A DNA stretch of 34,063 nucleotides from Bacillota bacterium (GTDB lineage: Bacteria > Bacillota > Sulfobacillia > JABLXB01): assembly GCA_024653225.1 (NCBI GenBank), contig JANLGA010000003.1, positions 1-34,063 on the forward strand, read 5' to 3'. Within the stretch, counting starts at the first letter, position 1. Every line of letters starts with the position of its first letter. Under the pieces are notes generated by a model. The model saw nothing but the letters and a program-made list of their open reading frames with translations. It was not told the origin of the DNA and made no database searches. Below, piece by piece: positions 5,316 to 19,926 of this stretch. The position numbers and the translations under genes are program-made.

Positions 5316-5319
5316 GCAG

Positions 5320-5715: not shown

Positions 5716-5718
5716 TTG

Positions 5719-6771
5719 ATGGAGCGGATGAGGGCGTTGCTGCTGAACGCGAGGGAGGACATGACGGCGGCCTCGGTCGAGAAGCCGGAACCCGCCGGCG
5801 GCGAGGTGCTGATGAGAGTGCTCGCCGCCGGGATCTGCGGGTCGGACGTGTCCAGGTACGGCAAGATAGGCCCGTACAAGCCCCCGTTGATCATGGGACA
5901 CGAAGTCTTCGGAAGGGTCGAGGGAAAGGGGGCCGGAGTGGAGGATGTCACCGTAGGCGAGACCGGCGTACTGGTTCCGCTCGTTCCGTGCGGGAAGTGC
6001 CCGAGCTGCCGGACGGGTAGGTACTCACTGTGCGACGACTACGACCTCTTCGGGGCGAGGAGGGACGGGGGCTTCGCCGGGTACATCCGCTGTCCGCGCG
6101 ACAACTTCTTCCGGGTTGAGGGAGATCTTCCCGCCGAGGAGGCGGTGTTCGTCGAGCCGGTCGCAACGGCCGCCCACGCCCTGATGAACGTGGGCGTCCG
6201 AGCCGGGGACACCGTCGCCTTTTTCGGCGGCGGCGTGATGGGCATGCTCGGGGCACAGGTCGCGGCGACCATGGGGGCATCCAGCGTATTCCTGGTGGAC
6301 ATTTCCGGGGACAAGATTCGCCTGGCGAAGAAGGTGACGGGGGCCGAGACGATTGACGCATCGCTGGTTGACCCCGTGAAACAGATCCTCGACATGACGG
6401 GTGGTATGGGAGTGGACGTGGCGGTGGAGGCCTCGGGCGCCACTGCCGCGCAGGAGCAGGTCCTTCTCGTTCCAAAGAAGGGCGGCCGAGTGGTGTACCT
6501 GGGCATATCGTACCTTCCACCGGTCATGCAGGCCCGGTCCTTCCAGAACATAGCCAGGCGCGAGCTGGTAGTGACGGGGTCGTGGATGTCGCACTCCCAT
6601 CCGTTTCCCGGAAGGGAATGGGCGTTCGCGTTGCAGGTAATCAAGGAAAGGCGGGTGAGAGTCGCCGAGATGGTCACGCACCGGATCTCCCTCGACGACG
6701 GACCCGCCATGTTTCGCGCCTTGAATGCCGGCTCAATCGTGGCGGGCAAGGTGCTGCTGTTTCCGGACTGA
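5719..6771 (+). CDS. Zn-dependent MDR alcohol/polyol(-phosphate) dehydrogenase 1
   Basis: AAGICGSDV and GHEVFG supply the catalytic Zn ligands. CGKCPSCRTGRYSLC is the structural Zn site and FFGGGVMG the Rossmann motif. The GGGGG RBS precedes ATG 5719. Confidence 0.9.
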   Translation: MERMRALLLNAREDMTAASVEKPEPAGGEVLMRVLAAGICGSDVSRYGKIGPYKPPLIMGHEVFGRVEGKGAGVEDVTVGETGVLVPLVPCGKCPSCRTGRYSLCDDYDLFGARRDGGFAGYIRCPRDNFFRVEGDLPAEEAVFVEPVATAAHALMNVGVRAGDTVAFFGGGVMGMLGAQVAATMGASSVFLVDISGDKIRLAKKVTGAETIDASLVDPVKQILDMTGGMGVDVAVEASGATAAQEQVLLVPKKGGRVVYLGISYLPPVMQARSFQNIARRELVVTGSWMSHSHPFPGREWAFALQVIKERRVRVAEMVTHRISLDDGPAMFRALNAGSIVAGKVLLFPD

Positions 6772-6784
6772 GGGGGGATGACGC

Positions 6785-7804
6785 GTGGGACGGCGGGGCA
6801 AGACGCGAGTCGCGATCGTGGGTTGTGGGCCGATCGCCCACAGGGCATACTTGCCTTTCCTCGTGGGAAGGGATGACGTGGATATCGTGGCCGTGTGGAG
6901 CAGGAGAGAGGAGACCCTCCGCAAGGTCTCGGCCCTCTACGGCATATCGGCGTGCACGACGGAGTTCGAGAAGGTGTTGGAGAAGCGTCCCGACTGCGCG
7001 TTCGTACTGACGACGTGCGAGACGCACCCGAAGTACGCCATCCCGCTTATCGAGTCCGGCTCGGATGTGCTTTGCGAGAAACCGATGGCGTGGACCATCC
7101 GGGATTCGGAGATGATGGTCGAAGCCGCCGCCAAGAGCGGGAGGATCCTCATGATAGGGTTCAACCGGCGGTATTCCGTGCCGTACGCCAGGGCGAAGCG
7201 GTTCTTCGAATCGGGCGTCGTCGAGACGTGCGTGGTAGAGCGGGTGAAGACCACGGGGAGGCCCAGGTGTGTAGCCGAGGACATCGTGCACAACCTCGAC
7301 CTGCTGCGGTGGTATTGCGGTGAGCCCCTCAGGGTGTGGGCCGCCGCGGCGGGGAAGGGGACCGGCGTGCCCGCGCCCGCGCGGCATAGTGATACCAGGC
7401 CCTTCTCGGTGGAAACCGGGGGCCCGGCGGACTTCGAGACCTCCCTGGTCGCCGCCGTCTCGTTCGATTCGGGCGCCCTGGGTGTGGCCGCCGTGTGCTT
7501 TTCCGCGGGGCGGTGGCACGAGAGGACGAGCATCTCGGGGGGTGGCCGGACCGCTGTGATCGAGGCGCCCGACTCGCTCCGACTGATCACCGCGGGCGAG
7601 GATGACGTGGCCGTGAACCTGACCGGTTCGACCGACAGTTGGGCGTCGCCGGCGGAGCTCAAGGGGTTCAAGGCGCAGGTGGAAGAGTTCCTGGAATGCC
7701 ACCTCAGTCGGAGGACCCCGTTGACCAACGGGGCCGACGCGCTGAAATCAATGAGACTGCTGGACCGCGTGTGTCGCGAGGCGGGCATCCCCGCTCTTGA
7801 GTGA
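6785..7804 (+). CDS. Gfo/Idh/MocA family oxidoreductase
   Basis: RVAIVGCGPIAHRAYLP is the N-terminal Rossmann fold and LCEKPMA the family motif. AGGGGGG RBS at 6771-6777 precedes GTG 6785. Confidence 0.9.
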   Translation: MGRRGKTRVAIVGCGPIAHRAYLPFLVGRDDVDIVAVWSRREETLRKVSALYGISACTTEFEKVLEKRPDCAFVLTTCETHPKYAIPLIESGSDVLCEKPMAWTIRDSEMMVEAAAKSGRILMIGFNRRYSVPYARAKRFFESGVVETCVVERVKTTGRPRCVAEDIVHNLDLLRWYCGEPLRVWAAAAGKGTGVPAPARHSDTRPFSVETGGPADFETSLVAAVSFDSGALGVAAVCFSAGRWHERTSISGGGRTAVIEAPDSLRLITAGEDDVAVNLTGSTDSWASPAELKGFKAQVEEFLECHLSRRTPLTNGADALKSMRLLDRVCREAGIPALE

Positions 7805-7910
7805 CGGAAGTCGGTGCGATCGAGCGCCCGGCCATGGAGGAATTCCGGGGTTGTCTATTGAAGTAGTATCTCAAACGAATGGTTATGGGTGAACGTTTGT
7901 GCACGGACCG

Positions 7911-8987
7911 ATGAAAGCCGCGCTACTGACTGCGCCGAACAAGATGGAGGTTGTGCGGGTCCCTTTCCCGGAGTGTGAGCCGGGTGGCATCGTGGTCCGC
8001 GTGCAGGCGTGCGCGATCTGCGGTTCGGACGTGCGCACGTACTTGCAGGGCGGCGAGACGAACGTCCCAAGGGAGTGGCTTGCGGGGGCGGGGCTGGAAT
8101 CGGGGCGGCTGATGGGCCACGAGTTCTCGGGCGTCATAGAATCGGTGGGCGAGCGGTGCACCGAGTTCGCCCGGGGCGAGCGGGTCGCGGTCTCACCGTC
8201 GCTGCCCTGCGGTCGCTGTCACAGTTGCCTCGCCGGCAGGGAGAACATCTGCGAGGACTTTCGGGGGCTGGGGCAGCACTTGCCGGGGGCGTACGCGGAG
8301 TTCGTGGCGGTGCCCGAGGCCGCGTTGCGGGCGGGAAACGTTCACCGGCTGCCGGATTCACTGTCGCCGGACGAAGGGGCCCTCATTGACCCGCTCGCGA
8401 GCGTGTTGAACGGACAGGAGAAGGCGGACATCCGCCCGGGCGAGTCGGTCCTGGTGATCGGGGCCGGGCCGATAGGATGCATGCACGCGGCGCTTGCGAG
8501 GTTGAGCGGGGCGGTTCCGGTGATCCTCGCACAGCGATCCGCACCGAGACTCGAGTTGGCACGGCGTCTGGAGTGTGCGGACGCTTATATAGACACCGGG
8601 CGCGAGGACCTCTGTTCCGCGGTCTTGGGGCTCACGGGCGGGCGCGGCTGCGACGTCGTCATCGTCGCCTGCCCGTCGCGACAAGCCCAGGAACAGTCGC
8701 TCGCCCTGGTCGGAAGGGGGGGTAGGATCGTAATGTTCGGGGGTCTTCCGAGAAGCGACGCGCTGATCACCGTCAACGGCAACGACATCCATTACAGGGA
8801 AATCACCATTCACGGGGCGTTCGCGATAAGGCCGTCCCACTTCGCGACCTCGCTGAAGCTCATTGCCTCGGGCCGCGTCCCCGCGAGAAAGTACGTCACG
8901 AATGCGTTTCCCCTCGACGGTATCGGCGAAGCGTTCAGCGCGGAAGTCCTCAAGAGATCACTGAAGGTAGTCATACATCCGTCATAG
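7911..8987 (+). CDS. Zn-dependent MDR alcohol/polyol(-phosphate) dehydrogenase 2
   Basis: ACAICGSDV, GHEFSG, CGRCHSCLAGRENIC and VIGAGPIG. MKAALL is a typical MDR N-terminus. The track ORF starts at GTG 7899. Confidence 0.9.
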   Translation: MKAALLTAPNKMEVVRVPFPECEPGGIVVRVQACAICGSDVRTYLQGGETNVPREWLAGAGLESGRLMGHEFSGVIESVGERCTEFARGERVAVSPSLPCGRCHSCLAGRENICEDFRGLGQHLPGAYAEFVAVPEAALRAGNVHRLPDSLSPDEGALIDPLASVLNGQEKADIRPGESVLVIGAGPIGCMHAALARLSGAVPVILAQRSAPRLELARRLECADAYIDTGREDLCSAVLGLTGGRGCDVVIVACPSRQAQEQSLALVGRGGRIVMFGGLPRSDALITVNGNDIHYREITIHGAFAIRPSHFATSLKLIASGRVPARKYVTNAFPLDGIGEAFSAEVLKRSLKVVIHPS

Positions 8988-9065
8988 GCGCGATAGCAGG
9001 TGCGTTCGGCGGCCCGACGAGTCGGGCGCCGACGGGTACGCATCACAAAGAAGGGGGTTTGTTAA

Positions 9066-10346
9066 GTGGGTTTTCTAGATTTCATCGTCAATGAAGTACT
9101 AAGCAAACCCGCCATAGTGATCGGCCTAGTTGCACTGGTCGGGCTGCTCGCCCAGAAGAAGAACGTCGCCCAGGTCGTAACGGGGACCGTCAAGACCACC
9201 CTCGGGTTCCTGATCCTGGGTTCGGGCGCGGGCATCCTGGTCAACGCCCTTCTGCCCCTCGGCGACTTGCTGAAGTGCGTGATAGGCGTGCCGGGTATCA
9301 TCCCGACCAACGAGGTCGTCATCGGGTTCGCGATCAAGGAATACGGCGCCCTGGGCGCGGGGGTCATGGCGCTCGCGTTCGTCGTCAACATCCTGATAGC
9401 GCGGTTCACGCCGCTTAAGTTCATCCACCTGTCGGGGCACATCACGTTCTTCACATCGTATCTCGTAGTCGCTATCCTCGCGACGTACTTGGGTCTCACG
9501 GGTGCCCCGGTGGTCATAGTGGGCGCAATAGTCGTGGGGTTCTACATGGCCTTCACCCCCTGGCTCATCCACGGCTTCACGAAGGGGGTCGTCGGTGACG
9601 ACCCGATAGCCCTCGGCCACTCGTCGTCGGCGAGCGCGCTGTTCGCGTCCTTGCTCGGCAAGTGGTTCGGCAACAAGGAGAAGTCCATTGACGAGCTCAG
9701 CGTTCCCCCGTCCCTCGCGTTCGTGCGCGACATGACCATCATGATGGCGCTGAGCATGTTCATCATCTTCCTGGTGATAGCGCTCCTGGCCGGCCCGGCG
9801 AACGTGAAGGAGATCACGAAGAGCAGCAGCTGGTTCATGTGGACGCTCATGTCCTCGCTGAACTTCGCGGCGGGCACATCCGTCATGTTGATGGGCGTGC
9901 GGATGACCATTGCCGAGATCGTCCCCGCGTTCAAGGGCATCTCGACGAAGATAGTCCCGAACGCCATACCGGCCCTTGACTGCCCCGTAATGTTCCCGTA
10001 CTCGCCGAACGCCGTCGTTCCGGGGTTCGTGATGAGCGTGCTCGGCGGGTTCGTGGCGATGGCGGTCCTGTACGCGTTCGGCTATCCCTACGTCATCATC
10101 CCGGGCATAATCCCCCACTTCTTCTGCGGCGCCACCGCCGCGGTCTACGGGAACGCCTGGGGAGGCAGGCGCGGAGCGCTGCTCGGCGCCTTCTTCAGCG
10201 GCTTCGCGCTTCAGGGTCTCGGCATCGGCCTGTTGATACCGGCCACTGGTGCCCTCGCGCAGACCGGATCGACCTTCCCGGACCCCGATATGGGGTTCTT
10301 CTGGGCCATATTCGGATACGCGATCAAGGTGATCAGCGGGCACTGA
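9066..10346 (+). CDS. PTS EIIC permease, L-ascorbate family (UlaA/SgaT-like), set 2
   Basis: 426-aa paralogue of 1113-2387 with VKTTLGFLILGSGAG, GVRMTIAEIVPAFKGI and ALDCPVMFPYSPNA. AAGGGGG RBS precedes GTG 9066. Confidence 0.93.
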   Translation: MGFLDFIVNEVLSKPAIVIGLVALVGLLAQKKNVAQVVTGTVKTTLGFLILGSGAGILVNALLPLGDLLKCVIGVPGIIPTNEVVIGFAIKEYGALGAGVMALAFVVNILIARFTPLKFIHLSGHITFFTSYLVVAILATYLGLTGAPVVIVGAIVVGFYMAFTPWLIHGFTKGVVGDDPIALGHSSSASALFASLLGKWFGNKEKSIDELSVPPSLAFVRDMTIMMALSMFIIFLVIALLAGPANVKEITKSSSWFMWTLMSSLNFAAGTSVMLMGVRMTIAEIVPAFKGISTKIVPNAIPALDCPVMFPYSPNAVVPGFVMSVLGGFVAMAVLYAFGYPYVIIPGIIPHFFCGATAAVYGNAWGGRRGALLGAFFSGFALQGLGIGLLIPATGALAQTGSTFPDPDMGFFWAIFGYAIKVISGH

Positions 10347-10380
10347 CGGTGATTCCGGCAGGCGTTTGATGCAGTTCGGC

Positions 10381-10423
10381 GCGGGGGAGCCGGAGAGGCC
10401 AGGGGTCTCCCGGCTCCCCCCGC
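10381..10423 (+). terminator. GC-rich hairpin after EIIC-2, a possible terminator or attenuator without a U-tract
   Basis: GGGGGAGCCGG at 10383-10393 pairs with CCGGCTCCCCC at 10410-10420, an 11-bp perfect stem that extends further with one bulge. It lies 35 nt after the stop at 10346. No T-run follows. Confidence 0.4.
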
Positions 10424-10472
10424 GTAGGTTGTCCGCGCGACGGCGGCGCGGAAGCAGCGGAGGTGTGAACCT

Positions 10473-11171
10473 GTGGTCACGAAGGCCGAGATGGCGAAGT
10501 GCATAGAGGTCACCTTGCTGAAGCCGGGGGCCGGGGCGGAGGAGATAGACCAGTTCTGTAAGGAGGCTCGACTCGGGGGATTTCTCGGCGCGGTCGTGCT
10601 GCCCGAATACGTCGCCCGGGCCGTTTCCCTACTGAAGGGGAGCGATGTCAAGGTCGCCACGGTCGTCGGCTTTCCGGATGGTCGAGGAACACCGGAGGAC
10701 AAGGCGCGCGACGCCTCGGCCGCCGCTCGCGACGGCGCGCAGCAACTGCATGTCGTCGTTGACCACTCGTCTGTCAAGGCCGGGGACTACGGGCGGGTCG
10801 CCGCCGAAATGGAGGCGGTTAAGAGGGCTTCAGCCGCGGCGGCGTCCGAGAAGGGCAATCCGGCGCCCGAGATAGTCGCGGTACTAGAGACCTGTCTTCT
10901 GTCGGGACCGGAGAGAGTGGAAGCTTGCAAGGCCGCGCTCCAAGGCGGAGCCGTCTCCGTCCAGGCGGGGACGGGGGCGGGCCCCAGGGGGGCCATGGCT
11001 GGGGAGATCATGGCTCTCAAGAAGGCCGCGGGGGCGTCGGTCCCGGTGAGGGCGGCGGGGGGCATAACCGGCTCGACGACGGCGCGCGCGTTCATTGACG
11101 CCGGCGCCAGTGTGCTGTGGAGCGAGAAGGGGATGGCGATCCTCAAGGAAGTGGAGCTGAAGTACTTCTAG
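10473..11171 (+). CDS. DeoC/LacD-fold aldolase-like protein lacking the class I aldolase catalytic residues
   Basis: Overall DeoC pattern is present (VATVVGFPDG, VLETC, RAAGGI, IDAGAS). The Schiff-base Lys motif is VSVQAGTG instead of DFVKTSTG. GGAGG at 10459-10463 precedes GTG 10473. Confidence 0.8.
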   Translation: MVTKAEMAKCIEVTLLKPGAGAEEIDQFCKEARLGGFLGAVVLPEYVARAVSLLKGSDVKVATVVGFPDGRGTPEDKARDASAAARDGAQQLHVVVDHSSVKAGDYGRVAAEMEAVKRASAAAASEKGNPAPEIVAVLETCLLSGPERVEACKAALQGGAVSVQAGTGAGPRGAMAGEIMALKKAAGASVPVRAAGGITGSTTARAFIDAGASVLWSEKGMAILKEVELKYF

Positions 11172-11182
11172 GAGACGGGGCC

Positions 11183-11491
11183 TTGCGGAGGGTATTCAGA
11201 GTCGAGAGGGAAGCAACCGGGACGCTTCTCTACCAACCCGATGAACTGCACGTGACCGAGCGGGGCGTGGCTTTGGTGCGCCCACACCTCTTCGGAGGGT
11301 CCGTGGAGGCACTCGGCGCCGGGGACATAGAGTCGGTGACCGCGACCCGGGGGCCCAGGTGGTGGGGCGTGTGCATCAGGTCCAGGTCGGGGCCCGGTAG
11401 GAGCCTGGTCATCAACGGCCTGGCCGAGAACGACGCGCTGGAGATAGTGAGCGCCGTGCGCCGGCTTCTCGGCGGTGCTGCTGGGGCTTAG
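11183..11491 (+). CDS. Small hypothetical protein, possibly a bacterial PH-like domain
   Basis: GGAG at 11171-11174 precedes TTG 11183, just after the upstream stop. The alternating beta-like pattern LHVTERGVALV...IESVTA...SLVINGL...ALEIVSAVRRLL suggests a PH-like fold. Function is not established. Confidence 0.5.
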   Translation: MRRVFRVEREATGTLLYQPDELHVTERGVALVRPHLFGGSVEALGAGDIESVTATRGPRWWGVCIRSRSGPGRSLVINGLAENDALEIVSAVRRLLGGAAGA

Positions 11492-11519
11492 GCTGCGTAG
11501 GGCTCGAATTGGAGGCGTG

Positions 11520-13974
11520 ATGGCTGTGACAGGAGAAGAGGCAATCGGCAGGCGGGAGAGGATCGCGCGCCTCAGGGACTGCATGCTGGAGCGCATGCCG
11601 GAAATATCGGCCGAGCGGGCGAGACTGCTGACCGAATCGTACAAGGAGACCGACGGGGCCCCGATGGTCATCCGCAGGGCCAAGGCGCTGGAGAAGATCC
11701 TGTCGAACATCAGCGTCCTCATACTCCCCGACGAGCTGATCGTGGGAAGCCAGGGGGCGCACCCCAGGACGGCGCAGATCTTTCCGGAGTACTGCGTCAG
11801 CTGGCTCAAGCGCGAGCTCGACGGCGACCCGTACAATTTCTGGGAGAGGCCGGGAGACAGGTTCTCCATCAGCCGGGAGACGATCCGCCAGTTGAAGGAG
11901 ATAATCCCGTACTGGGAGGGCAGGACGAACGAAGACAGGGTCATGTCTCTTCTCCCCGAGAGCGTGAAGAGGGCGCGCGAGATAGACGCCATTCACTGGG
12001 GTGGCCACGTGGCGGCCGGAGACGGCCACCTGATCGTGGACTACGAAGCGGTGATAAATGAGGGTCTGGACGGCATCCGCGCGCGGGCCGAGCGCGCGCT
12101 GGAAGGCCTCGACCTCACTGACCCGGAAGACCTGAGAAAACGACCGTTCCTCACGGCGGTCCCCATCGCCCTGAAGGCCGCCGTCGAGTTCGCCCGGCGC
12201 TACGCCGCCGAGGCGCGGCGCATGGCGGACCGCGAGATGGACCCGCGGAGGAAGAGGGAGCTCCAGGAGATCGCCTCGACCTGCGAGCGCGTGCCGGCTT
12301 CCCCCGCCACGACGTTCCGCGAGGCGCTGCAGTCGGTGTGGTTCACCCAGCTCATCCTCCAGATCGAGAGCAATGGTCACTCGGTTTCCCTCGGGCGTTT
12401 CGACCAATACATGTATCCGTTCTATAGGCGGGACGTCGAGCGGGGGATCCTGACCTACGAGCGGGCGCTCGAACTGGTCCAGTGCTTCTACGTCAAGCTG
12501 TTCTCAGTCGTGAAGCTGAGGGGCTGGAACCACACCCGGTATGTCGCGGGGCACCCGGTGTTCCAGAACATCACGATAGGCGGCCAAACCGCGAGAGGCG
12601 ACGACGCGGTCAACGAGGTGACGTACATCTGCCTCGACGCGATGGCCGAAACTAAGCTCACACAGCCGTCTCTGTCCGCGAGGTGGTGGCCCGGGTCGCC
12701 GGCAAGGTACAGGAAGCGGTGCGCCGAGGTGATACGCCTGGGGCTCGGGCAGCCCGCGCTGTTCAACGACGAGGTGATCGTACCGTCGCTCGTGGCGAGG
12801 GGAGTGACCCTGGAGGACGCCTCGAACTACGCCGCGGTGGGCTGCGTCGAGATAGGCGTGCCGGCCAAGTGGGGTTACTGCCCGAGCGGTCGCTGTCATT
12901 TCAACATGGGCAAGGTGCTCGAACTGGCGCTCAACAACGGGAGGGATCGCCGGACCGGGATACAGCTCTGCCCGGGCAACGGTGACCTGGCCTCGTTCAA
13001 GAGTTTCGACGAAGTGATGGAGGCGTGGCGGATTCAGGCCGAGTACTACCTGAAGCAACACATCATTTTCGACAACCTTAACGAGCTGACCAAGGAGGAG
13101 CTCGTGGCCGACGTGTTCTGCTCGGCGCTTCTCCAGGACTGCATCGGGCGCGGCAAGACGATTCACCAGGGGGGCGCGGTGTACGACTTCATTGCCGGCC
13201 AGCAGTGCGGCACGGCCAACGTGGCCGATTCCCTGGCCGCGATCAAGAAACTCGTGTTCGAGGAGCGGGTGATTACCGGGACCGAGCTCGCGCGGGCGCT
13301 TGAGACGAATTTCGAGGGGCCGGACGGCGAGCGCGTCCGGCAACTGTTGCTGAACAAGGCGCCGAAGTTCGGTAACGACGATGACTATGTTGACCTGATA
13401 GCGCGCGACGCGTTCGGGTTCTACGTCGAGAAGGTCAACACGTACAAGACGGTCAAGTACGGCCGCGGGCCGACGGGTGGCATGTGGCAGGCCTCGACTT
13501 CCACGGTCTCCGCGAACGTTCCGTCGGGGCTCGCGGTGGGGGCCACCCCGGACGGGAGGAAGGCGGGGGATCCACTTGCCGAGGGATGTTCCCCGGCCCA
13601 GGGCCGGGGAACATCCCTCGGCCCAGGGTCGCGACCGGAGCGGCCCGCCGGCCGCGGTGAGGTCCGTCGCCAAGCTCCCCAACATAATGGTCTCGGGGGG
13701 CCAGCTCCTGAACCAGAAGCTCTCCCCTTCGTTGCTTTCGACCGACGAAGGACTGGAGAAAATGATCGACGTCGTGAGGGGTTTCTTCGGACTCAAGGGT
13801 TGGCACATCCAATTCAACGTGGTCTCCGCGGACACGCTGAGGGATGCGATGAACAACCCGTCGAAGTATAGGGACCTGATCGTTAGGGTGGCGGGGTACA
13901 GCGCCAGGTTCGTTGACCTGGACCCTAAGGTGCAGAGAGACATCATTTCCCGGACCGAACAAGCGGGATTCTGA
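11520..13974 (+). pseudogene. Glycyl radical enzyme (PFL2/glycerol dehydratase-like family), interrupted by a 25-nt insertion that shifts the frame
   Basis: The N-terminal part is in the frame of ORF 11475-13871, including the Cys loop AAVGCVEIG (Cys codon 12843-12845) and GATPDGRKAGDPLAEGCSPAQG. The C-terminal part is in the frame of ORF 13477-13974: GRDRSGPPAAVRSVAKL...HIQFNVVS...LIVRVAGYSARF (Gly codon 13894-13896). As encoded, the first ORF runs out of frame to 13871. Confidence 0.92.
13581..13628. repeat. Quasi-palindromic insertion inside the GRE gene: 19-bp perfect hairpin arms plus a 9-bp direct repeat
   Basis: GAGGGATGTTCCCCGGCCC at 13581-13599 and GGGCCGGGGAACATCCCTC at 13601-13619 are exact reverse complements around A13600. 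GGCCCAGGG occurs at 13595-13603 and again at 13620-13628, 25 nt apart. Confidence 0.9.
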
Positions 13975-13983
13975 GGAGGACTC

Positions 13984-14457
13984 GTGGATCTACTCGACGT
14001 ACTCACTGAGGAAAGCATAGCACTAGACGTGGAAGCGGACGACTGGCGCGATTCGATTAGACAAGTGGGCCGAGTGCTGGTGGAAACCGGGGCGATTGAG
14101 CCGCGCTACATTGACGCGATGATCCGCACGGTGGAACAGATAGGTCCGTACCTGGTGCTGGCCCCGGGCGTGGCGATGAACCACGCCCGCCCGGAGGACG
14201 GCGTGAACAGGGTGTGCCTCGGGCTCGTCCGGCTGCGCACCCCCGTCAACTACGGGAGCGCCCACAATGACCCGGTGGATATCGTGATAGCCCTCGGGGC
14301 GGTCGACCACGAGGCCCATCTGAAGCTGCTCAGGGACCTGGCGTGCTTCCTGTCGGACGAAGAGAACATCCGACGGGTCAGGCGGGCAAGCACCAAGCAG
14401 GAGGTGATCGCGGCGTTCAGGCGGTGCGCGGAGCGCGCCGCCGGCGGCCAGTCGTGA
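13984..14457 (+). CDS. PTS EIIA component, L-ascorbate family, set 2
   Basis: DDWRDSIRQVGRVLV...GPYLVLAPGVAMNHARPEDGV is a paralogue of 281-748. GAGGAGG RBS precedes GTG 13984. Confidence 0.9.
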   Translation: MDLLDVLTEESIALDVEADDWRDSIRQVGRVLVETGAIEPRYIDAMIRTVEQIGPYLVLAPGVAMNHARPEDGVNRVCLGLVRLRTPVNYGSAHNDPVDIVIALGAVDHEAHLKLLRDLACFLSDEENIRRVRRASTKQEVIAAFRRCAERAAGGQS

Positions 14458-14514
14458 CCCTGCACCGAGAAGTCCACAATATGTCATACATCCGTCCCGG
14501 GAGGGAAGCCAAGA

Positions 14515-14811
14515 ATGCCGAAGGAGCTTCGAATCGCCACGATTTGTGGAATGGGGTTCGGTACAAGCCTGATTCTCAAGTACGGCGTGGACGATGTCCT
14601 GGCGGAGGCCGGGATAACGGGTTGCACAGTGGAGGCGTGCGACCTCGGTTCCGCGAAGGCGTCGCACACCGACCTGATTGTGGCCGCGGACGACATGAGG
14701 GCGTTGCTGGACGGAGCGAAGCAGCGGGTGGTCTACCTTCACAGCATGACGAACAAGAAGGAAATGAGGGAGAAGGTGCTTCCCGTCGTTAGAGAGCTCC
14801 TCGGTTCGTGA
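14515..14811 (+). CDS. PTS EIIB component, L-ascorbate family, set 2
   Basis: RIATICGMGFGTSLILK is the Cys loop. GGGAGGGAAG RBS precedes ATG 14515. Confidence 0.88.
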   Translation: MPKELRIATICGMGFGTSLILKYGVDDVLAEAGITGCTVEACDLGSAKASHTDLIVAADDMRALLDGAKQRVVYLHSMTNKKEMREKVLPVVRELLGS

Positions 14812-14845
14812 CGGCCGGATCGTCGAGAAGTTAGGGGGCCTGGAG

Positions 14846-15760
14846 GTGGCGTTCAGCCGGGTACAAGGCGTCGTATTCAATATCCAGCGCTATTCGATCC
14901 ATGACGGCCCCGGCATCAGGACACTCGTCTTCGTCAAAGGCTGTCCGCTGCGGTGCGGTTGGTGCTGCAATCCGGAGTCGCAGCGGCGGGAACCGGAACT
15001 GGGATACATGCGGTCCCGATGCATCGGCTGCCGCCGATGCATTGATTCTTGTGGTCGGGGGGCGCTGGTGTTCGAGGGCGACGGTTTGCGCATCTTGCGC
15101 GAACGGTGTGACGCGTGCGGCAGGTGCGCCGTCGCGTGTGCGGCGGGGGCGCTGGAGGTGTTCGGGCGCACGGTGACCGTGGAGGAAGTCATGGACGAGG
15201 TGCGCCGGGACACGCCTTTTTACGGTAGCGGGGGAGGACTGACCGTCTCCGGGGGCGAGCCGTTCTCGCAGCCCGATTTCACGGCAGCGCTGCTGGCCGC
15301 CGCGAAGGAAGAGGGATTGACGACGGCGGTCGAGACGTCCGGCTGCGCGCCGTGGGAGGCGATATCGCCCGCGTTGGGGTCGCTCGGCCTCGTGCTGTAC
15401 GACTTGAAGCACGCCGACCCGGACAGGCACCGGGAGGGCACCGGAGCGTCGAACGAGCTGATCCTGGAGAACCTGGGGAAGCTCGCGGCGGGCGGCCGCG
15501 CGAGGATCAGGCTCAGGGTCCCGCTCATCCCACGGTTCAACGCCGACCCGAACAGCCTGGCGGCGATGGCGAGGGTCGCCAGGGACATGGGAATGACCGA
15601 GGTTGACCTCCTGCCTTACCACCTGCTGGGAACCTCGAAGTACAAGTCCCTGGACCGTGAGTATCCTTGGGCGGGAGTCGAGCGCCTGACCGACCGCGAG
15701 ATCGAGGAGATGAGGCGTCCGTTCGAGTCGGCGGGATTGGGAACGCGGATAGGCGGGTGA
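14846..15760 (+). CDS. Glycyl radical enzyme activating protein (radical SAM) with an extra ferredoxin-like cluster insert
   Basis: SIHDGPGIRTLVFVKGCPLRCGWCCNPES contains the CX3CX2C motif. CIGCRRCIDSC and CDACGRCAVAC are auxiliary 4Fe-4S motifs typical of dehydratase-type GRE activases. Confidence 0.93.
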   Translation: MAFSRVQGVVFNIQRYSIHDGPGIRTLVFVKGCPLRCGWCCNPESQRREPELGYMRSRCIGCRRCIDSCGRGALVFEGDGLRILRERCDACGRCAVACAAGALEVFGRTVTVEEVMDEVRRDTPFYGSGGGLTVSGGEPFSQPDFTAALLAAAKEEGLTTAVETSGCAPWEAISPALGSLGLVLYDLKHADPDRHREGTGASNELILENLGKLAAGGRARIRLRVPLIPRFNADPNSLAAMARVARDMGMTEVDLLPYHLLGTSKYKSLDREYPWAGVERLTDREIEEMRRPFESAGLGTRIGG

Positions 15761-15795
15761 GCGGCCCGCTCCTTCACGTCAGGGAGGGATTGGCG

Positions 15796-16491
15796 TTGTT
15801 GACTAGGGCCGAGTTGAGAAAGATGATCGATCACACGGCGCTCAAGCCGTGGGTGGGCAGGGACGAGGTGCTCAAACTGTGCGGTGAGGCCAGGGAGAGG
15901 GACTTCGCCACCGTGTTCATCAACAGCTGCTGGGTCCCGCTGGCGGTGCGGGAATTGCGGGGCTCGCCCGTCAAGGTGGGCACCACCATCGGGTTTCCCC
16001 TCGGGGCCTGCATGACTTCCGTAAAGGTGTTTGAGGCGGTGGAGGCGGTCAGGGCGGGCGCCGGCGAGGTTGATATGGTGATGAACATCGGCGCCCTCAA
16101 GGACGGCGACTCGGAGTCGGCGCTGAACGACATGAGGGCGGTCGTCGAGGCCGCAAGGGCCGAGGCCGCCCGGGCGGGCGTTGAAGTAGTGGTGAAGGTA
16201 ATAATCGAGACCTGCTACCTCGACGACGCCCACAAGGTGTTGGCGTCCAAACTTGTCGTGCAGGCGGGCGCCGATTTCGTCAAGACCTCGACGGGTTTCG
16301 GCTCCGGGGGAGCGACGGTGGAAGACGTGCGCCTGATATCATCGGTCGTGGCGGGCAGGGCCCGCGTCAAGGCCGCGGGCGGCATCCAGACGCTTTCCCA
16401 GGCGAAGGCGCTCATCGAGGCGGGGGCGTCGAGGCTGGGAACCAGCAGGGGAGTGGCGCTCGACGACGAAATGGGGGCGACCACGGCGTGA
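15796..16491 (+). CDS. deoC: Deoxyribose-phosphate aldolase (canonical DeoC)
   Basis: IDHTALKP, GEVDMVMN, KVIIETC, ADFVKTSTGF and RVKAAGGI show all catalytic residues. AGGGAGGGA RBS precedes TTG 15796. Other in-frame starts include GTG 15757, and the track ORF starts at 15667 inside the activase gene. Confidence 0.92.
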   Translation: MLTRAELRKMIDHTALKPWVGRDEVLKLCGEARERDFATVFINSCWVPLAVRELRGSPVKVGTTIGFPLGACMTSVKVFEAVEAVRAGAGEVDMVMNIGALKDGDSESALNDMRAVVEAARAEAARAGVEVVVKVIIETCYLDDAHKVLASKLVVQAGADFVKTSTGFGSGGATVEDVRLISSVVAGRARVKAAGGIQTLSQAKALIEAGASRLGTSRGVALDDEMGATTA

Positions 16492-17339
16492 CTGGGCTCT
16501 CGGCGGGCGACCTGGAACGACTGAAGACGATCGCGGCGAGGATACGGCGCAAGTCCCTAGTGTTGATTTTCAACAGGGGATCCGGTCACCCCGGGGGTTC
16601 GCTCTCGTGCGCCGACATCCTGGCGGTCCTCTACGGGGGATACATGTACGTGGACCCGGCTCGACCCGATATGAGAGGAAGGGACCATTTCGTCCTGTGC
16701 AAGGGGCACGCCTCGATGGCGCTGTACGCCGCCTTGTCGGAGGCGGGATTCCTTCCTGATGACATCACTTCACTGCCCCCGGACCACCAGTATCTGCAAG
16801 GCCATCCCGACCGGTGGAAGACCCCCGGGGTCGAGATGTCCACCGGTTCCCTCGGCCAGGGATTGTCGGTCGCCCTGGGTATGGCGCTCGCGGCCCGGCT
16901 CGACGGCTGCGGCGGTCGCGTTTTCGCGCTCCTGGGGGACGGCGAGCTCGATGAGGGTCAGGTCTGGGAGGCGGCCATGGCCGCAGCGAACTACCGGGTT
17001 GACAACCTTGTCGCGATCGTTGACAGGAACGGGCTGCAGATCATGGGGAGGACCGGTGAAGTCATGGAGACCGAGCCGCTCTCCGCGAAGTGGTCGGCGT
17101 TCGGATGGAACGTCGTGGAAGTAGACGGAAACGACCCGGGAGCGGTGTGGGAGGCGCTCGACCTCGCGAGGAGCGTGACGGGGAGGCCCTCCGTCCTTCT
17201 GGCGAAAACGGTGAAGGGCAAGGGTGTGTCCTTCATGGAGGGGCGACCCGAGTGGCACGCGAAGGCCATATCCGCTTCGGAGCTGGAGAGGGCGCTGGCG
17301 GAACTCGAATCACGGGAGAAAGGGGGCGGATGCGAATGA
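16488..17339 (+). CDS. Transketolase, N-terminal (TPP-binding) subunit
   Basis: GSGHPGGSLSCADILAVLY, FVLCKGHASMALYA and LGDGELDEGQVWEA. The GTGA start overlaps the deoC stop. Confidence 0.93.
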   Translation: MTGLSAGDLERLKTIAARIRRKSLVLIFNRGSGHPGGSLSCADILAVLYGGYMYVDPARPDMRGRDHFVLCKGHASMALYAALSEAGFLPDDITSLPPDHQYLQGHPDRWKTPGVEMSTGSLGQGLSVALGMALAARLDGCGGRVFALLGDGELDEGQVWEAAMAAANYRVDNLVAIVDRNGLQIMGRTGEVMETEPLSAKWSAFGWNVVEVDGNDPGAVWEALDLARSVTGRPSVLLAKTVKGKGVSFMEGRPEWHAKAISASELERALAELESREKGGGCE

Positions 17340-18301
17340 CGAAGACAGCCGCTCCCCGCGACATCGTGGGCAAGACACTCATCGAACTGGGCCGGGAATA
17401 CCCCGAGCTCGTCGTGCTCGATGCGGACGTGGGTTCCTCGACGCGGTCGGCCGAGTTCGCCGCGGCATTCCCCTCCCGCTTCTTTCAGATGGGTATCGCC
17501 GAAGCCAACATGGCCGGAGTGGCCGCGGGGCTCGCCGCGTCGGGCAAGATTCCCGTGATGGTCGGGTTCGCCGTGTTCGTGACCGCCAAAGCATTCGAAC
17601 AGGTCAGGCAGTCGGTAGCGTGGGCGAACCTGAACGTCAAGATAATCGGCTCACATGCCGGACTCACAGTCGGACTCGATGGTGCGTCTCACCAGGCAGT
17701 CGAGGACGTGGCCATCATGAGGAGCCTCCCGAACATGTGCGTGTTGGACCCGGCGGACGCGGCCGAGACGGAAAGCGCCATCCGGGCGGCGGTCGTGCAC
17801 CGGGGCCCGGTGTACGTGAGGGTCGGGCGGCTGAAGTCGCCCGTGATATACGAAACACCCCCGCGGCTGACCCCCGGAAAGGCCGTCGTGCTGCGGGAAG
17901 GGAAGGACGCGACGATCATCGCCTGCGGCATCATGGTGGCCCGGGCCCTTGAAGCAGCGTCCCTCCTGGATGGGGACGGCATTTCTGTCGGGGTCGTGGA
18001 CATGGCGTCGGTCAAGCCGCTCGACGGAGACTGCGTGGTGGATTGCGCGGGCCGGACGGGCGCCATAGTGACGGCGGAAAACGCTTCGATCGTGGGCGGG
18101 CTGGGCAGCGCCGTGGCCGAGGTGCTGGCCGAGAAGGTTCCGGTTCCCATGGAGCGAATTGGAATACCGGATGTCTTCGGCACGTCGTCGGACCCGGAAA
18201 GGCTCATGGAACGGTACGGAATGACCGCGGAACACGTGCGGTCCGCCGTCACCCGGGTAATGGCGCGGAAGCGTGCTCAGAGGGGAAGGGACAATGGGTA
18301 G
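17336..18301 (+). CDS. Transketolase, C-terminal (pyrimidine-binding) subunit
   Basis: FFQMGIAEANMAGVAAGLA and GSHAGLTVGLDGASHQAVEDVAIMR. The ATGA start overlaps the N-terminal subunit stop. The track extension back to 17090 is rejected. Confidence 0.93.
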   Translation: MTKTAAPRDIVGKTLIELGREYPELVVLDADVGSSTRSAEFAAAFPSRFFQMGIAEANMAGVAAGLAASGKIPVMVGFAVFVTAKAFEQVRQSVAWANLNVKIIGSHAGLTVGLDGASHQAVEDVAIMRSLPNMCVLDPADAAETESAIRAAVVHRGPVYVRVGRLKSPVIYETPPRLTPGKAVVLREGKDATIIACGIMVARALEAASLLDGDGISVGVVDMASVKPLDGDCVVDCAGRTGAIVTAENASIVGGLGSAVAEVLAEKVPVPMERIGIPDVFGTSSDPERLMERYGMTAEHVRSAVTRVMARKRAQRGRDNG

Positions 18302-19229
18302 CAGGGACGCCGGACTCCTGGCGAAGATCGCTGCGTGGTATTACGAGGACGGCCTGACGCAAGAGGAAATAGCCCGCAGGAGCAGGGTATCCAGGCCGAG
18401 CGTTTCGAGGTTGTTGTCCCAGGCGCGAGAGATGGGAATAGTACAGGTCAAGGTGGCGTATCCGCTTTCCCAGGCAAAGGAGCTCGAACGCAGGCTTGAG
18501 AAGACCTTCGGCCTGAAGGAGGCCATAGTCGCCGACACATCCGGCTCGGGGTCGTTGCCCCTGGTACGCACGCTCGGAGCGGCCGCCGCAGAGTACCTCG
18601 AACGCGTCCTGGACGAGAACGACGTTCTCGGCGTATCCTGGGGGAACACGCTGTACCACGTGATCCAGTCGCTGGAACCGCGGCCCATGGAGCGCCTCAC
18701 GATCGTGCAGCTATGCGGCGGACTGGCCCCGGTGTGGGAGGCGACGGACTCGGCGGACCTAGTGCGGAAGATGGCCGCCGTGTACGGCGCCAGGGCCTAC
18801 CTCTTGCAGGGACCGCTGCTGCTGGGGTCGGAAGAGGAGTACAGGTACCTGGCGTCCAATCCCGCGATCGCCCTCACGCTCGACAAGATGAAGGACGTCA
18901 ACGTGGCGGTGGTGGGCATCGGGGCGCTCGAGGACTCGGTGTTCATGAGGAACAACATGCTCTCCCCGGAACAGGTTGAAGCCCTGCGTGCGACCGGCGC
19001 TGTCGGCGACATCTGCTCCCGGTTCATCGGACCGGACGGCCGGGAGGTGGACGCGACCTTCATTGGGCCGATGCTGGCGATACGGATGGAGGAACTGTGC
19101 CGCGTGGAGCATGTGGTGGCGGTGGCGGGCGGCCCGCGCAAGATCGCCGCACTGAGGGCCGCCTTGCTCACTGGGGCGATTGACGTTGTGATCACCGACA
19201 CGGATACAGCGGCCGGCATAGTAGCCTGA
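18294..19229 (+). CDS. SorC/DeoR(Bsu)-type sugar-binding transcriptional regulator
   Basis: N-terminal HTH LTQEEIARRSRVSRPSVSRLL followed by a sugar-phosphate-binding domain (VLGVSWGNT, NVAVVGIG, VAGGPRK). ATG 18294 overlaps the transketolase stop by 8 nt. Confidence 0.88.
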   Translation: MGSRDAGLLAKIAAWYYEDGLTQEEIARRSRVSRPSVSRLLSQAREMGIVQVKVAYPLSQAKELERRLEKTFGLKEAIVADTSGSGSLPLVRTLGAAAAEYLERVLDENDVLGVSWGNTLYHVIQSLEPRPMERLTIVQLCGGLAPVWEATDSADLVRKMAAVYGARAYLLQGPLLLGSEEEYRYLASNPAIALTLDKMKDVNVAVVGIGALEDSVFMRNNMLSPEQVEALRATGAVGDICSRFIGPDGREVDATFIGPMLAIRMEELCRVEHVVAVAGGPRKIAALRAALLTGAIDVVITDTDTAAGIVA

Positions 19230-19272
19230 GGGAGACCCGGCGAGGGCCGGCCCGCGTGGAGGAGTGTCCGAT

Positions 19273-19926
19273 ATGCCCGAGAGAGCGTCGAGAGTGAGTC
19301 CCGCGGTCGCGCTCGGCCGCGAGGTAGTGGAGAGGGAAGCGCGGGCGCTTCTGGACATGGCGGAGAAGATCGGACCCGAGTTCGAGCGGGCGGTCACCCT
19401 GTTGAGTGAATGCGAGGGCAAGGTGGTCGTCACCGGGATGGGGAAATCGGGCCTGATCTGCAGGAAGATCGCCGCGACACTCTCGAGCCTGGGCACCCCG
19501 GCCCTTTTCTTGCACGCCGGCGATGCGCTGCACGGCGACTCGGGCGTCCTGGCGGAGGAAGACGTGGTATTGGCGGTCTCTCACAGCGGGGAGACCGCGG
19601 AATTGTTGGCGCTCCTGCCCCTCATACGGAGTGCCGGCTCCAAGATCATAAGCATTTCGGGAAACCTCGACTGTTCACTCGCGCGCTCCGCGGATGTCGC
19701 CCTGTGCACGGGGGTGGGCACGGAAGCGGACCCGAGGGGTTTGGCGCCCACCAGCAGCAGCACCGCGACGCTCGCCCTCGGCGACGCGCTGGCCCTGTGC
19801 GTGGCGGAGGCGGACGGATTCACGGCCGACGACTTCCACGCCTTTCACCCGGGCGGGTCGCTCGGGAAGGCGTTGTCGCGTGGCCGCGATAACGCGGGAC
19901 GACCCGGCGCCGGGGCCGGGTCGTGA
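19273..19926 (+). CDS. SIS-domain sugar-phosphate isomerase, KpsF/GutQ-like but without the CBS pair
   Basis: VVVTGMGKSGLICRKIAATLSSLGTPA, SHSGET, LAPTSSSTATLALGDAL and FHPGGSLGK. The protein ends where KpsF CBS domains would begin. An alternative in-frame GTG is at 19264. Confidence 0.88.
   Translation: MPERASRVSPAVALGREVVEREARALLDMAEKIGPEFERAVTLLSECEGKVVVTGMGKSGLICRKIAATLSSLGTPALFLHAGDALHGDSGVLAEEDVVLAVSHSGETAELLALLPLIRSAGSKIISISGNLDCSLARSADVALCTGVGTEADPRGLAPTSSSTATLALGDALALCVAEADGFTADDFHAFHPGGSLGKALSRGRDNAGRPGAGAGS

What the first reader, a model, noticed from the sequence alone, without database searches (positions are those of the whole stretch)
13581..13628. GRE gene split by a 25-nt hairpin-forming insertion flanked by 9-nt direct repeats
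The frame changes just after GATPDGRKAGDPLAEGCSPAQG. Bases 13581-13599 and 13601-13619 are perfect reverse complements. GGCCCAGGG occurs at 13595-13603 and again at 13620-13628. Deleting any one 25-nt register, for example 13604-13628, gives ...AEGCSPAQGRDRSGPPAAVRSVAKL... This is the conserved GRE sequence with no residue lost, and it reconnects the catalytic barrel to the intact glycyl radical domain (RVAGYSA). The inserted bases are an inverted copy of the 16 nt immediately upstream plus a repeat of the junction, which is the classic footprint of an intrastrand template-switch (quasi-palindrome) mutation. I see three readings. (a) It is a very recent inactivating mutation in the key enzyme of the cluster. 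(b) It is an assembly or amplification chimera. (c) It is a programmed event: identical GCC-CAG codons at take-off (13596-13601) and landing (13621-13626) with a hairpin in the gap recall the matched-codon and stem-loop layout of the phage T4 gene 60 translational bypass. There is, however, no stop codon right after the take-off site here.
Basis: partly seen in the sequence, partly recalled or inferred. Interest (0 to 1): 0.7.

Follow-up and report, generated by a model that had tools for sequence, protein, structure and literature searches.

The report
Hairpin insertion breaking an enzyme gene
A 25-base inverted copy of the neighbouring sequence sits inside an otherwise intact anaerobic sugar-enzyme gene and is most likely a DNA-copying (template-switch) error; a second public assembly of the same strain has a 47-base version at the same spot, so this looks like an unstable mutation, not a programmed decoding signal.

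Summary
Window 13578-13599 and 13601-13622 form a perfect 22-nt inverted repeat. It is flanked by a 10-nt direct repeat, CGGCCCAGGG. Removing any of 11 equivalent 25-nt registers restores an 809-aa YbiW/PflD-type glycyl radical enzyme (GRE) that aligns without gaps to solved structures and to 33 homologues.

New finding: the window's proteins occur on two public records. A JGI contig is identical to the window over 22 kb except at this site, where it carries a 47-nt insertion. Each allele is reproduced exactly by one "four-point" template switch from the same inferred intact gene. Three switch points are shared and one differs. The return point lies on a natural quasi-palindrome. The 25-nt allele also equals the 47-nt allele minus 22 nt between GGGCCG repeats.

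Best reading (about 0.65): a real quasi-palindrome-type template-switch insertion, very recent and unstable, that inactivates the GRE. An amplification, library or curation artefact remains possible (about 0.22), because no reads could be examined. Programmed bypass is not supported:
- there is no stop or rare codon at take-off;
- the matched codons follow automatically from the switch;
- the two alleles need different recoding events;
- no homologue has a gap.

This is an ordinary kind of event. Interest is low.

The parts
11520..13603 (+). N-terminal, in-frame part of the glycyl radical enzyme gene (PFL-like barrel, Cys loop GCVE at residue 441), up to the last base before the insertion
   Evidence: The ATG at 11520 matches the JGI gene call. 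Pfam PF02901 covers residues 13-670 of the repaired protein.
13578..13597 (+). Natural quasi-palindrome of the intact gene (GCCG-A-GGGA / TGT / TCCC-CGGC). This segment was copied in inverted form, and its arms provide the CGGC microhomology for the return switch.
   Evidence: DNA fold of the inferred intact sequence; four-point decomposition.
13578..13622 (.). Perfect 45-nt palindrome created by the insertion (22-nt arms 13578-13599 and 13601-13622, centre A13600)
13604..13628 (+). The 25 inserted bases in one of 11 equivalent registers: CCGGGGAACATCCCTCGGC (reverse complement of 13578-13596) followed by CCAGGG (re-copied junction)
13594..13603 (+). Left copy of the 10-nt direct repeat CGGCCCAGGG
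   Evidence: the 9-nt repeat extends 1 nt to the left.
13619..13628 (+). Right copy of the 10-nt direct repeat CGGCCCAGGG. Slippage between the two copies would restore the intact gene.
13629..13974 (+). C-terminal part of the GRE in its original frame (RDRSGPPAAV ... glycyl radical motif RVAGYS at residue 781 ... stop at 13974), now out of frame with the N-terminal part
   Evidence: Pfam PF01228 covers residues 687-790 of the repaired protein.
13657..13974 (+). 105-aa GTG-initiated ORF (Gly_radical domain only). Both public records annotate it as a separate protein because of the frameshift.
   Evidence: P0121 / P0122.
13604..13871 (+). Out-of-frame read-through tail of the N-terminal ORF (RGTSLGPGSRPERPAGRGEV...PVEV, stop at 13871)
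14846..15760 (+). Intact GRE-activating radical-SAM enzyme of the same cluster. It shows the rest of the system is undamaged.
   Evidence: Pfam match; TIGR02494 at 343.9 bits.

Best explanation
The insertion is the footprint of a short-range replication template switch, that is, a quasi-palindrome-type mutation in the organism's DNA.

Proposed mechanism. Synthesis of the coding-sense strand reached ...GGCCCAGGG (about 13603). The 3' end GGG then re-paired with a nearby CCC on a strand of the same sense. The polymerase copied backwards through the natural quasi-palindrome to about 13578, which produced the reverse complement of the upstream sequence. The new 3' end ...CGGC then re-annealed to the identical CGGC at 13594-13597 of the original template, and normal synthesis resumed. 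This re-copied CCAGGG and left a 10-nt direct repeat.

The two alleles. If the first jump landed on the CCC at 13597-13599, the product is the 25-nt allele seen in the window. If it landed on the CCC 22 nt further downstream, the product is the 47-nt allele seen in the JGI contig. The 25-nt allele could equally have arisen from the 47-nt allele by a 22-nt slippage deletion between GGGCCG repeats.

Consequence. Either allele shifts the frame inside the invariant EGxSPxxG|xDxxGPxA motif and cuts the catalytic barrel off from the glycyl radical domain. The enzyme is therefore almost certainly inactive. The allele is very recent, because nothing else in the cluster is damaged. It is also intrinsically unstable: a perfect palindrome flanked by 10-nt direct repeats can be excised precisely.

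What is shown: the sequence anatomy, the exact four-point reconstruction, the frame consequences, the colinearity with homologues, and the existence of two alleles in two records.
What is inferred: the intact ancestor, the in-vivo origin, the order of the alleles, and the loss of activity.
For: - Exact reconstruction. The two share points 1, 3 and 4 and differ only in point 2 (13596-13599 versus 13618-13621). Microhomologies are GGG and CGGC.
- Predisposing structure. The copied segment is a natural quasi-palindrome of the intact gene. Its arms explain the fixed return point.
- Two records. The window's proteins are found on two public records, an NCBI contig of 50,824 bp and JGI Ga0417229_000397 of 41,934 bp. 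The JGI contig matches the window over 22,141 bases with 0 mismatches and a single 22-nt gap at this site.
- Not a graph artefact. Neither junction can be produced by a k-mer graph from intact reads, because the overlaps are 3-4 nt. Both junctions lie 19-41 nt apart, so molecules carrying both must have been sequenced (inference).
- Intact gene restored. Repair restores a gapless 809-aa GRE: PF02901 E = 2e-221 and PF01228 E = 7e-32, TIGR01774 at 861 bits, and colinear with YbiW structures 6xs4 and 8id7 across the junction. All 33 aligned homologues are continuous at this position.
- Nothing else damaged. All other genes of the window are intact. No other long perfect inverted repeat exists in 34 kb, which argues against a chimera-rich data set.
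- Known mechanism. Template-switch mutations that create perfect hairpins of tens of bases in one step are established (PMC8794818, PMC7954356, PMC7202029).
Against: - No reads, coverage or library information could be examined, so an in-vitro origin cannot be excluded.
- The intact allele was not found in any collection. The ancestor is therefore inferred from protein homology only.
- It is unknown whether the two records come from independent samples or from one read set.
- The first jump rests on only 3 nt of microhomology.
- A null allele dominating the consensus of two assemblies requires that the gene be dispensable in that habitat.
Confidence: 0.65

Rival explanations
1. In-vitro artefact. 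The inverted insertion arose during whole-genome amplification (phi29 strand displacement), library end-repair or PCR, or during later contig curation or polishing. The organism's gene would then be intact.
For: - Fold-back and inverted chimeras that nucleate at natural inverted repeats are a documented product of library preparation and amplification (PMC10908179, PMC6218980).
- The return junction lies exactly on a natural inverted repeat, as those models predict.
- The two assemblies disagree at precisely this site and nowhere else, which is what a locally unreliable region looks like.
- The rest of the cluster is perfectly intact.
Against: - Library artefacts are low-frequency, single-junction, read-end events (PMC10908179). 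Here two junctions 19-41 nt apart occur in one molecule and won the consensus in two assemblies.
- Both records share the same return junction, which is unlikely for independent artefacts.
- A k-mer graph cannot create the junctions from intact reads, because the overlaps are 3-4 nt.
- No other such event is present in 34 kb.
Confidence: 0.22
2. Phase-variation-like switch. The quasi-palindrome is a hot spot that toggles the GRE between ON (intact) and OFF (+47 or +25) by template switching and by precise excision between the 10-nt direct repeats. The population would then be a mixture of states.
For: - Two different alleles exist at the same site, with three shared switch points.
- Eleven deletion registers restore the intact gene exactly.
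- Polymerases slip efficiently across hairpins flanked by direct repeats (PMC4134008, PMC13465473).
Against: - The intact allele has not been observed in any collection.
- There is no evidence of recurrence in relatives; the nearest GRE is only 56% identical.
- The forward event relies on 3-4 nt microhomologies, so it should be rare.
- Nothing suggests selection for switching.
Confidence: 0.07
3. Programmed translational recoding. Ribosomes hop from GCC-CAG-GG at 13596 to the identical codons at 13621 (as in T4 gene 60), or shift frame, and so make full-length enzyme.
For: - Identical codons lie at the two ends of the gap, with a very stable hairpin between them.
- The 47-nt gap of the JGI allele is close to the 50 nt of gene 60.
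Against: - No stop or rare codon follows any candidate take-off codon. CAG, GGC and CGG are all common in this genome.
- Known bypass cassettes are homologous mobile inserts with a nascent-peptide signal, an internal Shine-Dalgarno sequence and AU-rich sequence (10.1101/2022.08.31.505936, PMC5462505). This insert is GC-rich and is purely a copy of local coding sequence.
- The matched codons follow automatically from the switch geometry.
- The 25-nt allele needs a +1 shift and the 47-nt allele needs a -1 shift. Either would add 8 or 16 residues inside an invariant motif.
- No homologue carries a gap.
Confidence: 0.02
4. Functional two-piece enzyme. The N-terminal barrel and the separately translated 105-aa glycyl radical domain associate, as GrcA (YfiD) does with damaged pyruvate formate-lyase.
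For: - Both records annotate a 105-aa Gly_radical ORF starting at GTG 13657.
- In the 47-nt allele, the upstream stop overlaps this GTG (GTGA), the arrangement seen in translational coupling.
- The C-terminus shows GrcA-like similarity.
Against: - The conserved residues RDRSGPPAA, which include the invariant G-P, are lost and replaced by out-of-frame sequence.
- No ribosome-binding site lies at a suitable distance before 13657 (sequence).
- In the window allele, the upstream ORF runs 214 nt into the 105-aa ORF.
- The split is unique to this strain.
Confidence: 0.03

Closest known systems
Quasi-palindrome-associated template-switch mutations (the Ripley model; E. coli work from the Lovett laboratory; the four-point TSM model of Loytynoja and colleagues: PMC7202029, PMC8794818, PMC7954356)
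   Same: - The new sequence is an exact reverse complement of adjacent sequence.
- It is explained by one departure and one return, with microhomology at both.
- It nucleates on a natural imperfect inverted repeat.
- It creates a perfect hairpin in a single step.
   Different: - Classic bacterial cases mostly perfect an existing quasi-palindrome by a few bases. Here the event is a net 25 or 47 nt insertion with a duplicated junction, a miniature inverted triplication.
- Two alleles that differ in only one switch point are seen.
- The ancestral DNA is inferred, not observed.
Phage T4 gene 60 translational bypass cassette (and mitochondrial 'byp' elements)
   Same: Matched codons lie at both ends of a non-coding gap of 25 or 47 nt, with a hairpin that includes the take-off codon.
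   Different: - There is no stop or hungry codon at take-off.
- There is no nascent-peptide signal, no internal Shine-Dalgarno sequence and no AU-rich 3' part.
- It is not a mobile cassette but a copy of local sequence.
- It is not conserved in any homologue.
Fold-back or inverted chimeras from library preparation and whole-genome amplification (PDSM model, PMC10908179; MDA palindromes, PMC6218980)
   Same: The strand is joined to its own reverse complement at short inverted repeats, and one junction lies on a natural inverted repeat.
   Different: - Those are low-frequency, single-junction molecules, usually at read ends or kilobases long.
- Here there are two junctions within 41 nt, and they are present in the consensus of two assemblies.
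Slipped-strand deletion of hairpins flanked by direct repeats (precise-excision type; in-vitro models PMC4134008, PMC13465473)
   Same: - The product has exactly this substrate geometry: a palindrome between 10-nt direct repeats.
- The 25-nt allele equals the 47-nt allele minus 22 nt between 6-nt repeats across a hairpin.
   Different: No deletion event was observed directly. The relation between the alleles is inferred.
YbiW / PflD glycyl radical C-O lyases of the 'anhydroglycolysis' pathway (PMC13450708; PDB 8id7, 8yjn, 8id0)
   Same: - The repaired protein aligns end to end with YbiW (E = 1.6e-217).
- It has the Cys-x-Glu loop and the RVAGYS glycine loop.
- It sits with PTS components, aldolases and an activase.
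   Different: - Substrate specificity was not tested.
- The aldolases here are DeoC-type (TIGR00126). The gene cluster also carries a split transketolase and dehydrogenases.
- The gene is interrupted.

Membership tests
Template-switch (quasi-palindrome) mutation | The novel sequence is an exact reverse complement of nearby sequence | tested here: met
   19-22 nt (window) and 41 nt (JGI allele) are exact reverse complements of the flanking gene sequence.
Template-switch (quasi-palindrome) mutation | The whole change is explained by one four-point switch with microhomology at departure and return | tested here: met
   The reconstruction is exact for both alleles. Microhomologies are GGG and CGGC.
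Template-switch (quasi-palindrome) mutation | A pre-existing imperfect inverted repeat lies at the site | tested here: met
Template-switch (quasi-palindrome) mutation | The ancestral state is documented in a sister or outgroup DNA sequence | tested here: inconclusive
   No intact allele or close relative was found. The ancestor is inferred from gapless protein alignments.
Template-switch (quasi-palindrome) mutation | The change is present in the organism's DNA, not only in a library | not testable with these tools
Gene-60-type programmed translational bypass | Matched take-off and landing codons | tested here: met
   GCC-CAG-GG occurs at 13596 and 13621. This is an automatic consequence of the direct repeat.
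Gene-60-type programmed translational bypass | A stop or rare 'hungry' codon immediately 3' of the take-off codon | tested here: not met
   The following codons CAG, GGC and CGG are common (16.7, 39.1 and 20.2 per 1000), and there is no stop.
Gene-60-type programmed translational bypass | A homologous cassette with internal Shine-Dalgarno and AU-rich gap sequence, conserved among relatives | tested here: not met
   The gap is a GC-rich copy of local coding sequence. No homologue has a gap. The two alleles have different gap lengths.
Gene-60-type programmed translational bypass | A nascent-peptide signal that arrests the ribosome, and measured bypass | not testable with these tools
   This needs a reporter assay or proteomics.
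Glycyl radical enzyme, PFL2/glycerol-dehydratase subfamily (YbiW/PflD-like) | PFL-like barrel plus C-terminal Gly_radical domain in one chain | tested here: not met
   As encoded, the two domains are in different frames. After removing 25 nt, both are present and the protein passes TIGR01774 (861 bits against a cutoff of 678).
Glycyl radical enzyme, PFL2/glycerol-dehydratase subfamily (YbiW/PflD-like) | Catalytic Cys loop (C-x-E) and glycine loop RVxG, plus a cognate activase nearby | tested here: met
   GCVE is at residue 441 and RVAGYS at residue 781. The activase at 14846-15760 matches TIGR02494.
Library or amplification fold-back chimera | A single strand-to-reverse-complement junction at low read frequency | tested here: inconclusive
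   Two junctions occur in one molecule, in consensus sequence, in two records. This argues against the artefact, but read frequencies are unknown.

The most novel reading that the evidence does not exclude
The quasi-palindrome inside the GRE gene is a natural, reversible mutational switch. Template switching inserts 47 or 25 nt (OFF). Precise slippage between the 10-nt direct repeats removes them (ON). The population would then hold a mixture of states of an oxygen-sensitive, costly enzyme. Rare ribosome hopping between the matched codons might add a trickle of activity.
Probability: 0.06. Interest if true: 0.6.

Novelty: new member of a known kind. Interest (0 to 1): 0.22.

Why it matters
This matters mainly for annotation and quality control. 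The key enzyme of an anhydro-sugar or PTS-linked GRE pathway in this uncultured high-GC Bacillota-like organism should be annotated as one frameshifted gene. It should not be read as a truncated "formate C-acetyltransferase" plus a free-standing glycine-radical protein.

It is also a clean natural example of a short template-switch mutation caught in two related states. That is useful for anyone who studies template-switch signatures or palindrome instability in environmental genomes. It also shows that two assemblies can disagree at exactly such sites. It does not open a new mechanism.

Tried and rejected
- Search for the intact allele or other copies. An exact 46-mer common to all alleles gave 0 hits in metagenome contigs, genome contigs and viral contigs.
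- Look-ups of the window's own products. These returned "not on record", so the source contig is apparently not indexed. Its existence as an NCBI record of 50,824 bp came only.
- Protein search centred on the junction, to catch fragments of an intact allele. It found nothing above 60% identity except the 105-aa fragment itself.
- Literature search for the sample identifiers. No hits.
- Taxonomic placement through OadB. The nearest genomes are 65% identical or less and are Clostridia/Bacillota MAGs, so no close relative is available for comparison.
- Transposon-excision footprint with a 9-bp target duplication. Rejected: the insert is entirely local sequence, and the palindrome centre (13600) does not lie at a duplication boundary.
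- Misassembly from intact reads by a k-mer graph. Rejected: forward and reverse strands overlap by only 3-4 nt at the junctions.
- Frameshifting. Rejected: the two alleles need opposite shifts, no slippery motif is present, and the extra residues would fall in an invariant motif.
- Small intron (bulge-helix-bulge), known RNA family or terminator. Rejected: the hairpin is perfect with no bulges, there are no Rfam hits in the window, and no T-run or terminator lies at the site.
- Short GRE C-terminal proteins on long contigs as a possible natural split family. The example checked (P0206) is a remnant next to an IS110-type transposase and is unrelated to this case.
Full report
**1. The observation**

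Bases 13581-13599 and 13601-13619 are exact reverse complements. The perfect arms extend further, to 22 nt (13578-13599 and 13601-13622), around A13600.

GGCCCAGGG occurs at 13595-13603 and 13620-13628. With the preceding C, the direct repeat is 10 nt long.

This is the only long perfect inverted repeat in the 34-kb window. In 100 first-order Markov simulations of the window, the longest perfect arm was 8-12 nt. The analytic expectation for an arm of 22 nt or more is about 8e-8.

The region folds at -69 kcal/mol as RNA and -40.7 kcal/mol as DNA, with z-scores near -6.7.

**2. The gene that is interrupted**

The ORF that starts at ATG 11520 reads a PFL-like barrel up to ...AEGCSPAQG. It then runs out of frame to a stop at 13871. 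The frame holding the glycyl radical domain continues from 13629 to 13974.

The repaired protein has 809 residues. The evidence that it is a complete enzyme is as follows:
- PF02901 matches residues 13-670 (E = 2.4e-221), and PF01228 matches residues 687-790 (E = 7e-32).
- It passes NCBIfam TIGR01774 with 861 bits against a cutoff of 678.
- It aligns end to end, with no gap at the junction, to the solved YbiW-type structures 6xs4 and 8id7.
- The Cys loop GCVE lies at residue 441 and the glycine loop RVAGYS at residue 781.

In an alignment with 33 homologues, the break falls inside the motif EGxSPxxG|xDxxGPxA, between invariant residues. No homologue is split or gapped there.

YbiW and PflD are C-O lyases for 1,5-anhydroglucitol-6-phosphate and 1,5-anhydromannitol-6-phosphate in the "anhydroglycolysis" pathway (PMC13450708). 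The surrounding genes fit a pathway of that type and are all intact:
- PTS EIIA, EIIB and EIIC-GAT components, in two sets;
- two DeoC-type aldolases;
- a split transketolase;
- zinc and GFO-type dehydrogenases;
- a SIS protein and a sugar-binding regulator;
- an intact activase.

**3. A second allele in a second public record**

The best database hit to the repaired protein is P0001. It is 720 aa long and 99% identical, but its tail (...SPAQGRSGRDPGPGNIPRPRVATGAARRPR) is not what the window encodes.

P0001 lies on JGI contig Ga0417229_000397 (41,934 bp). That contig matches window 1520-23660 with 0 mismatches and one 22-nt gap, exactly at this site. The JGI contig therefore carries a 47-nt insertion, at L001 12085-12131.

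Exact-sequence look-ups show that the window's other proteins occur on two records. One is an NCBI contig of 50,824 bp, whose translations start with M and which is presumably the source of the window. The other is the JGI contig.

So there are two separate assemblies of what is evidently the same strain, and they disagree only here.

**4. Anatomy of the two alleles**

Let a = GCCGAGGGATGTTCCCCGG, b = CCCAGGG and c = TCGCGACCGGAGCGG, and let a prime mark the reverse complement.
- The intact gene reads a-b-c.
- The window reads a-b-a'-b-c.
- The JGI contig reads a-b-c'-b'-a'-b-c, a miniature inverted triplication.

- departure after 13600-13603;
- copying of the complementary sense from point 2 back to 13578-13582;
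- return at 13594-13598.

The only difference between the alleles is point 2. It lies at 13596-13599 for the 25-nt allele and at 13618-13621 for the 47-nt allele. At both places the 3' end GGG can pair with a CCC. The return uses CGGC.

This is exactly the copied segment, and its arms supply the CGGC return homology. That can explain why both alleles return at the same point.

The window allele also equals the JGI allele minus 22 nt. Seven registers give this result, because of a 6-nt repeat GGGCCG across the b/b' hairpin. The two alleles may therefore be parent and derivative. In the 47-nt allele, point 2 lies ahead of the departure point. That allele therefore needs a switch to the other template strand, not a fold-back of the nascent strand.

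**5. Real mutation or artefact?**

Neither junction can be generated by a k-mer graph from intact reads, because the forward and reverse strands share only 3-4 nt there. Molecules that carry both junctions, 19-41 nt apart, must therefore have been sequenced.

Library-preparation chimeras also nucleate at natural inverted repeats. However, they are described as low-frequency, single-junction, read-end events (PMC10908179). Amplification palindromes are much larger (PMC6218980).

Here a two-junction structure won the consensus in two assemblies that share one junction. No other such event exists in 34 kb.

For these reasons I favour a genuine DNA-level template-switch mutation, at about 0.65. 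This mechanism is established in bacteria and in evolution, and it is known to create perfect hairpins of tens of bases in one step (PMC7202029, PMC8794818, PMC7954356).

An in-vitro or curation artefact remains at about 0.22. I could not see reads, coverage or library type, and I do not know whether the two records share reads.

**6. Consequences**

Both alleles shift the frame (+25 is 8 codons plus 1 nt; +47 is 16 codons minus 1 nt). Both disconnect the barrel from the radical domain, so the enzyme is almost certainly inactive.

Both records consequently annotate a free-standing 105-aa Gly_radical protein from GTG 13657. This is an annotation by-product of the frameshift.

The product is a perfect palindrome between 10-nt direct repeats. 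This is the classical substrate for slippage deletion, and polymerases slip on such templates even in vitro (PMC4134008, PMC13465473). Eleven deletion registers would restore the intact gene. The allele should therefore be unstable and revertible.

**7. Programmed recoding**

The matched codons are a geometric by-product of the switch returning upstream of its departure point. The features that define the gene 60 cassette are absent. Those features are a stop or hungry codon after take-off, a nascent-peptide signal, an internal Shine-Dalgarno sequence, an AU-rich gap, and a conserved mobile cassette (PMC5462505, 10.1101/2022.08.31.505936).

Here:
- The codons that follow (CAG, GGC, CGG) are common.
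- The gap is a GC-rich local copy.
- The two alleles would need different events.
- Frameshifting would add 8 or 16 residues inside an invariant motif.
- No homologue has a gap.
- There is no Rfam family in the window and no terminator at the site.

I put recoding at about 0.02, a functional two-piece enzyme at about 0.03, and a reversible phase-variation-like switch at about 0.07.

**8. Verdict**

The template-switch interpretation is supported, and the bypass idea is not.

The feature is a new instance of a well-known kind of mutation. It is interesting mainly as a clean two-allele example and as an annotation warning.

Read mapping to the three alternative sequences would settle whether the event arose in vivo or in vitro.

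Noticed in passing
window 230-19926: Large sugar-utilisation cluster built around the GRE. It holds two PTS sets (EIIA 230-745, EIIB 621-1091, EIIC-GAT 1095-2387; EIIC-GAT 9066-10346, EIIA 13984-14457, EIIB 14515-14811). It also has a GlpA-like flavoprotein trio, three dehydrogenases, two DeoC-type aldolases (10473-11171, 15667-16491), a split transketolase, a SIS protein and a Sugar-bind regulator. It resembles the YbiW/PflD 'anhydroglycolysis' layout, but with DeoC-type instead of FSA-type aldolases. The substrate is unknown.
   Followed up: partly
window 14846-15760 (L001 13571-14263): The JGI gene call for the GRE activase is N-terminally truncated (230 aa). The full 304-aa ORF, from GTG 14846, contains the CPLRCGWCCN radical-SAM cluster motif and matches TIGR02494 end to end. 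This is an annotation error in the public record.
   Followed up: partly
window 11183-11491 (L001 9664-9972): A 102-aa ORF lies directly upstream of the GRE start and abuts it. It has no Pfam hit and weaker GC3 bias (0.72) than its neighbours. It could be spurious, or it could be a small GRE-associated subunit.
   Followed up: no
window 19988-21129 (-): Two adjacent CotE (spore-coat) paralogues. Together with 65% G+C and nearest OadB relatives at 65% identity or less in Clostridia/Bacillota MAGs, they point to a deep-branching, high-GC, spore-forming Bacillota-like lineage with no close sequenced relative.
   Followed up: partly
P0128 (NCBI, 2,088-bp contig): An EIIC-GAT protein clustered at 90% identity or more with the window's 9066-10346 product exists on a short NCBI contig. 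A related strain or species has therefore been sampled, but its GRE region is not in the databases.
   Followed up: no
L002 4001-4672 (ENA PETT22-1 scaffold_69) and cluster P0206: A 223-aa GRE C-terminal fragment (PFL-like end plus Gly_radical) recurs in 103 member sequences and sits next to an IS110-type transposase (Transposase_20). It is a transposon-truncated GRE remnant that is widespread in ENA metagenome assemblies. Several other short C-terminal GRE proteins lie on long contigs (P0130, P0133, P0144, P0155).
   Followed up: partly
window 25786-28467 (-) and 32806-34062 (+): Two CHASE4-HAMP signalling proteins lie here. One has GGDEF plus HD-GYP-type HD domains. The other runs off the window end. 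A methyl-accepting chemotaxis protein (30036-32018) and an OadB Na+-pump subunit (28727-29875) lie between them.
   Followed up: no
window 24034-25269 (-) / 25025-25933 (+): A radical-SAM ORF and a VanW-like ORF on opposite strands overlap by about 245 nt as stop-to-stop frames. The true starts were not resolved.
   Followed up: no
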